DNA of 64,000 bases from the human T2T-CHM13v2.0 reference genome, Homo sapiens. Where the stretch lies: assembly GCF_009914755.1 (NCBI RefSeq), contig NC_060925.1; one strand, given 5' to 3'. Positions 32,227 to 60,469 of the stretch are shown here, in pieces (the stretch's first letter is position 1; the number at the start of each line of letters is the position of its first letter). The translations under genes were made by a program, and so were the position numbers. The notes below the pieces were generated by a model, which worked only from the letters and a program-made list of their open reading frames with translations, was not told the origin of the DNA and searched no databases.

Positions 32227-38314
<6,088 letters not shown>

Positions 38315-50457: not shown

Positions 50458-50950
50458 TGACATTTTCTCCTGAAATGACCATCTCCCCTGACTCCTCCAA
50501 AGTAAAGCTTCAGTAAAGCCTTCTATTTTCTATTCCTACCTCCCCCAAGGCTGAAAAAGTACCTCTCCTTTTTGTTCTCTAGCAACCTACACGTATGATT
50601 TTTACGGCAAATGCCATATTGGGTAGAAATTGTTCATTCCACTTGTAATTTCTCTCGATTATGAACTACTTAATACTGGGGACAACACCTTTCATCTTTA
50701 AAACCTTAAACTTGGGAGAAAATAGAAAATCAATGTATTTTTGTTATGGAATAAATAATTTTGAGTGATAAATGGGTAAAAAGCATATTGGATAGAAGAA
50801 AGAGCATTGGCAAAAGCTTACAACTTCTAAAACTAATCATCTCAAAATTACCACTAATCTCCATGTTGTCAAATTAAGTGGTCAGTTCTCAGATCTGTCA
50901 GCGGCTTTTGTCGCAATTGGTCATAGCATCCACCTCGAAATACTATTCTT

Positions 50951-57124
<6,174 letters not shown>

Positions 57125-57138
57125 GAAATACTGTTCTT

Positions 57139-58440
57139 ATTTGGCTTCCAGGACTTTACATTCTTCTTATTTTTTCTCCTATGTCCCTAGTCACTTTTCA
57201 GTTTTACTTATTTGTTCTTCATATCCATTCAGACCTATTCTCTTTTTATCTACATTCATGCCCTTGGTGATCTATATTCTCAAGACCTCACAATAGTATT
57301 TTTTCTTCATCTGTTATAGGTAAATGCACAAACTGGCCCAGTTGGAAAGACTTGACCTAGGCAATAATGAATTCAGTGAGCTGGTAAGCCATCTCTATGC
57401 TACCATGCTCAAATTATGTCTTTCCTAGACTCTTTTCTTGATGTCTATGCTTGTTTATGCAACTGAATGATTAACATCTCTAGTTGACTCTAGAGTAGAA
57501 ATTTCCAACTGAACACCTAAAACTGAACTTCCAGTCTACCCAAAACCCTGCTCCACTTGGTCTTCCTCATCAGTCACTTGCAACTCCATCCTTCTAGTTG
57601 TTCAGACCAAAACACACCTTTAGTCACAGTCAGCTCTCATTCCCCACAGCTGACTCATCAAGACATTTAGTTCTTATCTTAACTATATCCAGAACCCTAC
57701 CACATCTCAGCACCTTTACCATTGCCTTATTATGGCCACCACTGTGGCCATAAATTTTTTATAATAAGAAAGAAGTAAAATAGATTCAGTCCAAGCCACC
57801 ATCACCTCTTATTTGACTTATTACATTAGCCTTCTCTTTGATCTTCCTTCTTCTACTGTTGTCCCCCTCAGTCTGTTTATAAGCCTGCAATCACAGATAT
57901 TCTTCTAAAACAAATCATTTCAGAAACATCTTTCATAAAAACCTTTCAGTGGCCCCCTATCCTACTCAGAATCAAAGCCAAAGTCTCTACATTGTGCTGT
58001 AAGATCGCATATTATGCAACTCCCCATTACATCATCTTTCTACTCCTCCCTCTCTCTCTCTTCTTTAGCCATACTGGTCTGCTAGGATGTCTTCAAGCAA
58101 GTAAAATGTCCCTGCTTTAGAATCTCCATATTAGCATGCTTTTTCATTTCCTTTCTGCCTTGGCTCCAATTTCGTATTCTCATTGAGGCCTTACCTGATC
58201 ACCCTACTAAAAATTAAATCCTTATATGAATTCTCTCTATCTACCTCCTCTGCTTAACTTTTCTCTGTAGCACTTGTAACCTTTTAATATGTTATTTTAT
58301 TTTATTTTATTATTTTGTTTACTCTGATTCTTCCCTGCTGAATGTAAAGTCCTTTGAGGTAGGAATTTTTATCTGTTTTGTTCTCTGCCATACCCCAGAT
58401 CAGCACATAATACTCTCTCAATAATAGTTGCTGAGTGAAG
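57139..58440 (+). mobile_element. L2 LINE remnant (5' part at ~50850-50950)
   Basis: tctacattcatgcccttggtgatct, aaaactgaactt, gtccaagccaccatcacctct, ctcagaatcaaagccaaagtc, gaatgtaaagtcctttgagg; L2-like 3' end. Confidence 0.75.
57320..57383 (+). pseudogene. Duplicated LRRC7 exon (pseudo-exon) with in-frame stop and intact AG/GT
   Basis: 62/64 identical to 59669-59732; TCA>TAA and GGT>AGT; flanked by ctgttatAG and GTaagc. Confidence 0.95.
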
Positions 58441-58789: not shown

Positions 58790-59157
58790 TGTATTAGTCT
58801 GTTTTCACACTGCTATAAAGAAGTGCTCCAGACTGGGTAATTTATATAGAAAAGAGGTTTAATTGACTCACAGTTCCACATGGCTGGGCAGGCTTCAGGA
58901 AACTTAAAATCATGGCCGAAGGGGAAGCAGGCACATCTTATATGGCAGCAGGCGAGAGAGAACATGTGAAGGAGGAACTGTCAAACACTTATAAAACCTT
59001 CAGATCTCATGAGAATTCTCACTTTCATGAGAACAGCATAGGAGAAACCACCCCCATGATCCAATCACCTCCCACCAGGTCCCTTCCTCAGTATACGATT
59101 ATGGGGATTACAATTCAAGATGAGATTTGGGTCAGGACACAGACCAAAACTGTATCA
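58790..59157 (-). mobile_element. MSTA-type MaLR solo LTR
   Basis: tgtattagtc...ctgggtaattt...aattgactcacagttcc...gagatttgggt...tatca. Confidence 0.9.
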
Positions 59158-59668
59158 GTGTGACAACTATTCATAGCTATAGCAGCTTTCAAGTCAATAT
59201 GTTTGGGAGACAATGACTACAATTTGTCTGTAACAGAAGTTCATTTAAAGGAGTAGAAAATAATAAGACTGATGATGAAATGGTGCCATATTATGAGATT
59301 TTAGAATGGTTTGCTGAGAATTGGTTTCAGCCATTGATTCCCAATCCTGTGGTGACTCTTAAAAATATTGAAGTGGGGCCCCACCCTACACCTCCCACTG
59401 GTGTAGATATTTAATAAGCTTCTTGGATTTTTGTTAAGGAGCCAGCCTTGCATGCCAACCATATTGGCATTTGTGAACAGATGCTGTAGCTTTTCAGCTG
59501 GCAGTTTGCATAGATTTTGTGTATTTGAGATTTACTTGTTGCTGAAGAGTACCCCCAGTTTTGTGCACTACGCAATCAGGTAAATCTGACAGGAAGGTGG
59601 TTGGAATGTCTTTTAGAGCAATGTATCATGCACTACCTCACAATAGTATTTTTCTCCATCTGTTGTAG

Positions 59669-59732
59669 GTCAATGCACAAACTGGCCCAGTTGGAAAGAC
59701 TTGACCTAGGCAATAATGAATTCGGTGAGCTG
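59669..59732 (+). CDS. LRRC7: LRRC7 (Densin-180) internal coding exon, 64 nt, phase 2 to phase 0: SMHKLAQLERLDLGNNEFGEL
   Basis: tttttctccatctgttgtAG acceptor and CTG|GTAAGC donor; LxxLxxLxLxxNxF LRR consensus. The peptide matches my recollection of Densin-180, and PIN1P1 lies nearby. Confidence 0.92.
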
Positions 59733-60469
59733 GTAAGCAAATGCATTTTCTAAACCTGATAAATACCCTTCAGGAGATTCTTTCTTTTGCTCTGTCTTTG
59801 TAAACCAAGGTATTAACTTGATTGCACGTTTGCATTTGCTAAATGTAAAAGTAAAAACCTGGAAGTTAATATTAGCTTTCACTTTTTGGAAAAAAAAATG
59901 GAATTGAGCCAGATACAAATTGATAGTTTTGAGGACCAACTATGTGACAGGTGCCATGCTTAGTATGTTACATATGTTATCTCTTTTAATCCTGATTGGA
60001 CATGTTGCCATTTTAACCTAATGGAAATGAACTTAAAATGGTCACTGTCATACATAGCTATTAAGTGCCTGAACAGGGATTAAACCCAGACTTGATTAAA
60101 TGCAAAGACCGTACCTTGAAAACCTGCTTTGGAGGCTTCTTGGTGCCATTGCATGAGAGAAGTAAGTCACCAATGGCATTCTGGTTCTTACTATATTGAA
60201 AGCGTCTTTCTAGTGAACCCATATTACTACTTCACTGCTGGCAAGACTGGCAGAATTCTGCCTTCTCCTTTTGAGCATCCATTTTGTTTAAAATTTGCCT
60301 GAAGACCAAAATCTCAGATGCAAATCAGAAAGCATATACTTCTTTACAAGACGGCTCAGCTTTCTCTATTCAGAAGTCTTCCACTTGAATATCTCAAATT
60401 TCAAAAAATTCAATTCATCTAAAGTGTATTTTAATTATTTTAAAATTAAAAGATTTAAGTAAGCAATCC

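What the first reader, a model, noticed from the sequence alone, without database searches (positions are those of the whole stretch)
57300..57389. One C>A change gives the exon copy recursive-splice-site (RS-exon) architecture
Seen: the copy reads tttttcttcatctgttatAG|GTAAAT, whereas the real exon reads AG|GTCAAT. The mutation that makes the stop also makes a much better 5' splice site directly after the acceptor. Established: vertebrate recursive splice sites in very long neuronal introns consist of a 3'ss abutting a 5'ss, followed by a PTC-containing RS-exon with its own donor. Inference: the copy could be recognised and then removed as a zero-length exon, neutralising a harmful duplication. 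This would be a de novo origin of a recursive site by exon duplication. The reconstituted donor (probably AA|GTAAAT) is only moderate in strength and must compete with CTG|GTAAGC.
Basis: partly seen in the sequence, partly recalled or inferred. Interest (0 to 1): 0.8.

Follow-up and report, generated by a model that had tools for sequence, protein, structure and literature searches.

The report
Exon copy inserted in LRRC7 intron
A 104-base copy of one LRRC7 exon, with its splice signals, was pasted into an old repeat 2.35 kb upstream in the same intron; a later C-to-A change gives it the look of a recursive splice site, but the sequence suggests a silent or poison pseudoexon rather than a working one.

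Summary
The copy exon (57320-57383) differs from the real LRRC7 exon (59669-59732) at two bases. A57322 turns TCA into an in-frame TAA and turns AG|GTCAAT into AG|GTAAAT. The donor CTG|GTAAGC is unchanged.

New here:
- The duplicated unit is only 104-105 nt and occurs twice in the whole assembly.
- It is an insertion into a dispersed repeat, not a tandem duplication. It has no target-site duplication and no poly(A), and about 10-13 nt of the repeat were lost. This is the signature of a double-strand-break "patch".
- The upstream exon ends in AAA, so the reconstituted donor is AAA|GTAAAT.

That donor is better than the real junction. It is still clearly weaker than the copy's own donor: about 3 bits on a recalled matrix, and -3.2 versus -8.0 kcal/mol against U1. 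Published work says cryptic RS-exons need the opposite relation.

The site is missing from the one catalogue I could check for this intron, and LRRC7 appears in no held list of supported recursive sites. No RNA data could be examined.

Verdict: real recursive-site-like anatomy with no support for the function. It is most likely a silent or NMD-targeted pseudoexon. Recursive splicing remains possible at roughly 10-15%.

The parts
57285..57389 (+). Inserted copy of the LRRC7 exon unit: 33-34 nt of upstream intron, the 64-nt exon, and 6 nt of downstream intron.
   Evidence: 95% identical to 59635/6-59738. Only two copies exist in the genome. The flanks are unrelated to the real exon's flanks.
57286..57290 (+). 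Branch-point candidate CTCAC, with the A at 57290, 30 nt before the copy exon. It lies just inside the duplicated unit.
   Evidence: yUnAy scan. The same motif sits 29 nt before the real exon (A at 59640).
57300..57319 (+). Pyrimidine tract and acceptor TTATAG of the copy.
   Evidence: 15 of 18 pyrimidines at -20..-3, the same count as the real exon. Sequence.
57320..57383 (+). Copy exon (pseudoexon), 64 nt.
   Evidence: It differs from the real exon at two bases.
57320..57325 (+). GTAAAT abutting the acceptor AG. This is the candidate recursive 5'ss (AAA|GTAAAT after the first splice; TAG|GTAAAT in unspliced RNA).
57321..57323 (+). In-frame TAA made by the C-to-A change at 57322 (the real exon has TCA, Ser).
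57375..57375 (+). Second exon difference, A versus G at a CpG of the real exon. It weakens an internal 5'ss-like site (TCG|GTGAGC becomes TCA|GTGAGC).
   Evidence: U1 duplex -8.3 to -4.6 kcal/mol.
57384..57389 (+). Donor GTAAGC of the copy, identical to the real exon's donor.
57263..57284 (+). Left flank: a dispersed-repeat word (CTTGGTGATCT) plus 11-12 nt of remaining spacer.
57390..57401 (+). Right flank: the repeat word CATCTCTATGCT. In other family members it lies about 25 nt after the left word.
59635..59738 (+). Source unit around the real exon.
59669..59732 (+). Annotated LRRC7 coding exon (NM_001370785.2).
   Evidence: Hub annotation.

Best explanation
A 104-105-nt piece of LRRC7 pre-mRNA or DNA was copied and patched into a break inside an old interspersed repeat. 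The piece runs from the branch-point region, through the acceptor and the 64-nt exon, to the first 6 nt of the donor. The break lay 2.35 kb upstream in the same 94-kb intron. The repeat looks LINE-2-like, but that name is recalled and was not tested. The copy has since drifted by 4 substitutions and 1 indel. One change, C to A at 57322, makes both an in-frame TAA and an AG|GTAAAT junction. The copy is a pseudoexon. Most transcripts probably ignore it. When it is recognised, the stronger downstream donor CTG|GTAAGC should win, so the copy would be included and the mRNA removed by NMD (a poison exon). Recursive removal through the weak reconstituted donor AAA|GTAAAT would be at most a minor route. 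What is shown: the anatomy, the insertion origin, and the relative donor strengths. What is inferred: the splicing outcome.
For: Origin. The unit is sharply bounded and its flanks are unrelated to the real exon's flanks. There are only two copies in the genome. The two flank words are 139 nt apart end to end in the window. In 34 of 34 other genomic matches (at most 1 mismatch) they span 35-57 nt, and 16 of the 34 span exactly 48 nt; the reversed-pattern controls gave 0 matches. 30 of the 34 were aligned. Flank similarity extends beyond the seed words, and further collinear matches lie downstream. There is no target-site duplication and no poly(A), and about 10-13 nt of the repeat are missing. 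These are the marks of class 2 templated sequence insertions as described in PMC5110952 (passages).

Splicing. RS-5'ss AAA|GTAAAT scores 2.2 bits and -3.2 kcal/mol. The copy donor scores 5.2 bits and -8.0 kcal/mol. Blazquez 2018 (passages) states that efficient recursive splicing of cryptic RS-exons needs an RS-5'ss that outcompetes the downstream donor, and that the EJC represses RS-5'ss. Including 64 nt shifts the frame with or without the TAA. None of the 10 RefSeq transcripts uses the copy (hub table). The site is absent from Zhang 2018 S1, which lists 3 putative sites in this same intron, and LRRC7 is not among their 342 supported candidates.
Against: No RNA-seq, lariat or conservation data could be examined, so the actual use of 57320 is unknown. 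The copy keeps every local signal of a constitutive exon: the branch-point candidate, the pyrimidine tract, the exon body and the donor. "Mostly ignored" is therefore a guess. In Zhang 2018 only 67% of reconstituted donors are stronger than the RS-exon donor, so a third of their sites work with the weaker relation. The 5'ss matrix uses recalled frequencies, and MaxEntScan could not be run. Zhang's cell lines may not express LRRC7, and their filter requires PhastCons of at least 0.5, which a young insertion would fail whatever its function. A 2026 preprint reports 3,022 recursive sites from 900 human brain samples, but I could not see its tables. The repeat family name is recalled only.
Confidence: 0.6

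Rival explanations
1. The copy is defined as an exon and spliced to the upstream exon. The reconstituted AAA|GTAAAT is then used, so the copy leaves as a zero-length exon. On this model the C-to-A change turned a harmful exon copy into a recursive splice site.
For: All sequence parts of the vertebrate RS-exon layout are present. The C-to-A change raises the junction by 4.3 bits on the recalled matrix, from -2.1 to +2.2, and from -1.6 to -3.2 kcal/mol. The site is the only one of 243 AG|GT in the window with a good tract plus a tail this good. The odds that one of the two exon changes hits a donor-raising position are about 0.03. 33% of Zhang 2018 RS sites have the weaker reconstituted donor. 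Blazquez 2018 shows that single point mutations at the RS-5'ss can switch exon fate.
Against: The reconstituted donor lacks -1G and +5G. It is about 3 bits and 4.8 kcal/mol weaker than the competitor, which is also nearer the next acceptor. The EJC represses RS-5'ss in mammals. The site lies 92 kb into a 94.4-kb intron and would leave only 2.35 kb, so it does not subdivide the intron usefully. No catalogue that I could search lists it. The odds figure is post hoc.
Confidence: 0.12
2. The C-to-A change silences the copy without any splicing at 57320. In unspliced RNA the sequence reads TAG|GTAAAT, a better U1 site than the reconstituted one. U1 bound there overlaps the acceptor AG and hinders its recognition, or simply acts as an intronic U1 site.
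For: TAG|GTAAAT scores 3.95 bits and -6.7 kcal/mol, against 2.2 bits and -3.2 kcal/mol for AAA|GTAAAT. No transcript using the copy is annotated (hub table).
Against: This is pure inference, with no binding or splicing data. Drosophila and vertebrate recursive sites carry the same overlap and their acceptors are still used (background).
Confidence: 0.08
3. A rival for the origin. The two exons are an old tandem exon duplication (a decayed mutually exclusive pair), and only their cores were kept alike by gene conversion.
For: The two exons have the same length and phase, and lie in the same orientation in one intron. Unannotated duplicated exons are common in human genes (PMC9013439, passages).
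Against: Both flanks of the copy are adjacent parts of one dispersed repeat family, interrupted exactly by the unit. Outside the unit there is no residual flank similarity. The copy carries a stop.
Confidence: 0.04

Closest known systems
Cryptic RS-exons / recursive splice sites of long vertebrate genes (Sibley 2015, known to me only through Blazquez 2018, Zhang 2018 and the DMD review; the paper itself is not held)
   Same: An acceptor abuts a GT. A short exon follows with a premature stop and its own donor. The setting is a long intron of a brain-expressed gene.
   Different: The reconstituted donor is weaker than the RS-exon donor. The site lies 2.35 kb from the intron end. It is probably not conserved (absent from a list filtered on PhastCons of at least 0.5). 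No junction, lariat or sawtooth evidence is available.
Class 2 templated sequence insertions (DSB repair patches; PMC5110952)
   Same: A short copy of a sequence whose donor site stays intact. It has no target-site duplication and no poly(A), and there is a small deletion at the target.
   Different: The template lies only 2.35 kb away in the same intron and orientation. The insertion appears in both hg19 and CHM13 (by coordinate offset) and is about 4-5% diverged, so it is old rather than a known polymorphism. Whether an RNA intermediate was involved is unknown.
Unannotated duplicated exons / tandem exon duplications (Letunic 2002 as cited in PMC9013439; Hatje 2017)
   Same: An intronic look-alike of a neighbouring exon with the same length and phase.
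   Different: It is not tandem, since only 104 nt were copied into a repeat. The reading frame is closed by TAA.
Poison exons / pseudoexons
   Same: An intronic AG...GT unit whose inclusion gives a premature stop and so predicts NMD.
   Different: Inclusion has not been observed. The LRRC7 poison exon listed in PMC11632617 ("21b", testis) is a different place.

Membership tests
Vertebrate recursive splice site with RS-exon | AG|GT: a 3'ss with a pyrimidine tract directly abutting a 5'ss-like GT inside a long intron | tested here: met
   (unique among 243 AG|GT sites); intron of 94,405 nt.
Vertebrate recursive splice site with RS-exon | A downstream RS-exon with its own donor, carrying a premature stop | tested here: met
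   64 nt, TAA at 57321-57323, donor CTG|GTAAGC.
Vertebrate recursive splice site with RS-exon | A reconstituted 5'ss strong enough to outcompete the RS-exon donor (Blazquez 2018) | tested here: not met
   2.2 versus 5.2 bits (recalled matrix); -3.2 versus -8.0 kcal/mol U1 duplex. MaxEntScan was not available. In Zhang 2018, 33% of sites also fail this.
Vertebrate recursive splice site with RS-exon | Evolutionary conservation of the site | tested here: inconclusive
   The site is absent from Zhang 2018 S1 (filters: 3'ss at least 5, PhastCons at least 0.5, not an annotated splice site), while 3 other sites of this intron are listed. Which filter removed it is unknown.
Vertebrate recursive splice site with RS-exon | RS junction reads, lariats, or a sawtooth read profile | not testable with these tools
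   No RNA-seq is available. LRRC7 is absent from the held supplements of Blazquez 2018, Hoppe 2023 and Zhang 2018 S2.
Class 2 templated sequence insertion | An inserted copy whose donor sequence is intact elsewhere | tested here: met
Class 2 templated sequence insertion | No target-site duplication and no poly(A) tail | tested here: met
   Junctions read.
Class 2 templated sequence insertion | A microdeletion and/or microhomology at the junctions | tested here: met
   The words span 139 nt against a modal 48 nt in the family, while the insert is 104-105 nt, so about 10-13 nt of the repeat were lost. One ambiguous base (A, 57285 / 59635) sits at the left junction.
Tandem exon duplication / mutually exclusive exon pair | A tandem unit with homologous flanks and an open frame in both copies | tested here: not met
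   The flanks are unrelated. The copy carries TAA.
Poison exon | Measurable inclusion that creates a premature stop | not testable with these tools
   The stop on inclusion is shown. Inclusion itself is unknown.

The most novel reading that the evidence does not exclude
A lineage-specific recursive splice site was born in two steps: a break-repair patch copied a complete exon-definition unit into the intron, and then one substitution gave it a usable abutting donor. LRRC7 pre-mRNA in human neurons would then be spliced first to 57320 and again from 57320. This would be the first dated example of how a vertebrate RS-exon arises.
Probability: 0.1. Interest if true: 0.7.

Novelty: new member of a known kind. 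Interest (0 to 1): 0.3.

Why it matters
If the copy is spliced at all, it is a built-in source of frameshifted LRRC7 transcripts in neurons. It would also be a possible target of deep-intronic variants that raise its inclusion. If it were truly recursive, it would show how RS-exons can arise from exon copies. As it stands, its value is as a clean, datable example of a short templated insertion that carried a whole exon-definition unit into an intron. It is also a natural test case for the rule that the reconstituted donor must beat the RS-exon donor.

Tried and rejected
- MaxEntScan and SpliceAI are not installed. A text search for the two 9-mers together with MaxEnt found 0 papers. I used a recalled position matrix and computed U1 duplex energies instead.
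- Looking for other copies of the flanking repeat failed three ways. Searching inside the window found only weak hits. Genome BLAST with each flank alone found only the flank itself. The four loci from the 782-nt query did not reach the junction. The two-word pattern search then worked.
- A global three-way MAFFT alignment across the insert was misaligned on the left. I replaced it with separate flank alignments and a family alignment.
- Literature, main texts only. LRRC7 with "recursive splicing" gave 0 papers. LRRC7 with "cryptic" gave 19 papers and LRRC7 with "poison" gave 11; none is relevant judging by title or abstract. "Recursive splic" with "exon duplication" gave 8 papers, none of which links the two by title or abstract. 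The five-term search did not require LRRC7 and says nothing about it.
- Access limits. Sibley 2015 is not held. I did not ask for the tables of the 2026 brain RS preprint, because preprint supplements are closed.
- Rejected readings. A protein-coding alternative exon is ruled out by the TAA at its second codon. A CHM13-private variant is unlikely, because the hg19 coordinates of a site 22.8 kb upstream map with the same offset as the real exon.

Full report
**1. The observation**

The copy exon is 57320-57383 and the annotated LRRC7 exon is 59669-59732. Both are 64 nt. Both are preceded by a T-rich tract ending in TAG, and both are followed by GTAAGC.

Only two exon bases differ.
- At 57322 the copy has A where the real exon has C. 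This turns TCA (Ser) into TAA in the LRRC7 frame and turns AG|GTCAAT into AG|GTAAAT.
- At 57375 the copy has A where the real exon has G, at a CpG of the real exon.

Upstream of the exon there are two further substitutions and one extra T.

With one gap, the unit runs from 57285/6 to 57389 and matches 59635/6-59738. That is 104 nt at 95% identity. These are the only two copies in the 3.1-Gb assembly.

**2. How the copy arose**

The flanks of the copy show no similarity to the flanks of the real exon, so this is not a tandem duplication of a larger block. Instead the copy interrupts a dispersed repeat.

- I took one 11-nt word just left of the copy (57263-57273) and one 12-nt word just right of it (57390-57401) and searched the whole assembly for both words within 10-40 nt of each other.
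- This gave 2 exact matches and 34 matches with at most one mismatch. The reversed-pattern controls gave 0 and 0.
- In all 34 matches the two words span 35-57 nt end to end, and 16 of the 34 span exactly 48 nt. In the window they span 139 nt.
- 30 of the 34 matches were held as loci. Aligned with the window, they show the 104-nt block as a single insertion, and family similarity continues on both sides beyond the seed words.
- Further collinear matches to the same family lie downstream of the copy.
- Since 139 - 48 = 91 and the insert is 104-105 nt, about 10-13 nt of the repeat were lost at the insertion.
- There is no target-site duplication and no poly(A). One base (A, 57285 / 59635) is shared at the left junction.

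These are the marks that Onozawa and Aplan give for class 2 templated sequence insertions, which are patches used to repair double-strand breaks (PMC5110952, passages).

From memory the repeat looks like the 3' part of LINE-2. No repeat library is available here, so that name is untested. I also recall a 2004 report of short paired duplications in mammalian genomes that fits this geometry, but the text search for that phrase found nothing.

The copy appears to be in hg19 as well. A site 22.8 kb upstream (window 36867) and the real exon map to hg19 with the same offset. With 4 substitutions and 1 indel in 104 nt the insertion is old, on the order of tens of millions of years, but with a very wide error. 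It cannot be dated without other genomes.

The copied piece starts 5 nt before the only good branch-point candidate (CTCAC, A at 57290) and ends 6 nt into the donor. It therefore carries a complete local exon-definition unit.

**3. The gene context**

I fetched 6 kb around the expected place of the upstream exon. Among nine AA|GTR-ended open frames, one reads ...LVKLRILELRENHLKTLP followed by AA|GTAAGT. It ends at CHM13 chr1:69,715,263.

- Its frame joins the real exon as ...TLPK|SMHKLAQ. That this is the neighbouring exon is inferred from the frame, from the leucine-rich-repeat pattern, and from the hg19 intron in Zhang's table.
- The intron is therefore 94,405 nt long.
- The copy's acceptor lies 92,056 nt into the intron. 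Only 2,349 nt would remain after a recursive step.

**4. Donor strengths**

MaxEntScan is not on the machine. I used a position matrix from recalled human 5'ss frequencies, which is rough, and ViennaRNA duplex energies against the 5' end of U1.

| Site | Matrix score (bits) | U1 duplex (kcal/mol) |
|---|---|---|
| AAA\|GTCAAT (real exon junction) | -2.1 | -1.6 |
| AAA\|GTAAAT (copy, reconstituted donor) | +2.2 | -3.2 |
| CTG\|GTAAGC (donor of copy and of real exon) | +5.2 | -8.0 |
| TAG\|GTAAAT (copy, unspliced RNA) | +3.95 | -6.7 |
| Consensus donor | +8.9 | -14.0 |

The C-to-A change does make a much better donor, a gain of 4.3 bits. The result still lacks both -1G and +5G, and it is clearly weaker than the donor 64 nt downstream that it would have to beat.

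**5. What the literature requires**

- Blazquez 2018 (passages read) defines the RS-exon model. It states that efficient recursive splicing of cryptic RS-exons requires a strong RS-5'ss that can outcompete the downstream 5'ss, and that the EJC represses RS-5'ss in mammals. It uses a MaxEnt cut-off of 5.52. It finds that 1.7-4.9% of annotated exons qualify as putative RS-exons, so an exon that starts with a donor-like GT is not rare in itself.
- Zhang 2018 (passages) reports that 67% of reconstituted donors are stronger than the RS-exon donor. A third are not, so the weaker relation here lowers the odds of recursion but does not exclude it.

**6. Catalogues**

- No paper in the library holds both "LRRC7" and "recursive splicing".
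- LRRC7 does not occur in the held supplements of Blazquez 2018 or Hoppe 2023.
- Zhang 2018 S1 lists putative sites: AGGT in introns of at least 5 kb, 3'ss score at least 5, PhastCons at least 0.5, and not an annotated splice site. It has 12 LRRC7 rows.
- Three sites in that table lie in this intron (hg19 70303966-70397189). One of them falls exactly on an AGGT at window 36867 under the offset set by the real exon. The copy, expected near hg19 70,394,839-41, is not listed.
- The most likely reason is low conservation, as expected for a lineage-specific insertion, but I cannot tell which filter removed it.
- LRRC7 occurs in only two of the six held Zhang supplement files: the S1 table and a per-transcript table (file 5). 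It is therefore not among their 342 junction-supported candidates. Those cells may not express LRRC7.
- A 2026 preprint reports 3,022 recursive sites from 900 human brain samples, with only 4.1% overlap with earlier sets. Its main text does not name LRRC7, and I could not see its tables.

**7. Is the change more than chance?**

- Among 243 AG|GT on the sense strand of the window, only 57320 combines a tract of at least 70% pyrimidines, a YAG, and a tail as good as AAAT. The tract is inherited from the real exon, so only the tail is new.
- Of 192 possible single substitutions in the exon, 9 make an in-frame stop and 3 raise the abutting donor by 2 bits or more.
- Both purine substitutions at position 3 do both things, so the stop and the better donor are one coincidence, not two.
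- The chance that at least one of the two observed exon changes is donor-raising is about 0.03, weighted or unweighted. This is suggestive at best, because the hypothesis was framed after seeing the change.
- The stop is not needed to make the copy harmful. A 64-nt insert shifts the frame, and even the unmutated copy would end in a stop 11 codons into the real exon.

**8. Reading**

The origin as a templated insertion into a repeat is well supported.

For function, I think the copy is a pseudoexon that is mostly ignored. When it is recognised, it should mostly be included through its own strong donor and the transcript removed by NMD. Recursive removal would be a minor route.

A third possibility, at about 0.08, is that the new TAG|GTAAAT binds U1 on the unspliced RNA and masks the acceptor. 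That would also neutralise the copy, but without any recursive step.

An old tandem duplication kept alike by gene conversion is unlikely, at about 0.04, because the repeat is continuous around the unit.

**9. Verdict**

The anatomy is real and nicely explained, but the proposed function is untested and disfavoured by the relative donor strengths. The finding is a new member of known kinds: a templated insertion, an intronic exon copy, and a pseudoexon. It is of moderate to low interest unless RNA data show junctions and lariats at 57320.

Noticed in passing
59722-59732 and 57373-57383: The real exon carries a second 5'ss-like site, TCG|GTGAGC, 8 nt upstream of its true donor. Its U1 duplex is -8.3 kcal/mol, as strong as the true donor. 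In the copy the CpG change at 57375 weakens it to -4.6 kcal/mol. Tandem U1 sites may help define the real exon, and their loss may weaken the copy.
   Followed up: partly
36867 and about 1925: Two putative recursive sites listed by Zhang 2018 S1 for this same intron fall in the window. hg19 70374388 maps exactly to TTTTCAG|GTACAC at 36867. hg19 70339561 maps to 2040, where there is no AGGT; the nearest is at 1925, which implies a 115-nt length difference between hg19 and CHM13 in between.
   Followed up: partly
about 50937-57118, minus strand: The sequence ending near 57118 looks, from memory, like the start of an L1 5' UTR in reverse orientation. That would be a long L1 whose 5' end lies 170 nt upstream of the exon copy (hub repeat mask). 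This was not tested.
   Followed up: no
L041:1764 (CHM13 chr1:69,715,263) to window 59668: The intron is 94,405 nt in CHM13 but 93,223 nt in hg19 (Zhang 2018 S1), so the assemblies differ by 1,182 nt somewhere upstream of window 36867.
   Followed up: no
outside the window (listed as chr1_70041420_70041625_+): PMC11632617 lists a conserved LRRC7 poison exon '21b', with testis as its tissue. It is a different place from the copy studied here.
   Followed up: no
58790-59150: A stretch between the copy and the real exon looks, from memory, like another interspersed repeat. It was not examined.
   Followed up: no
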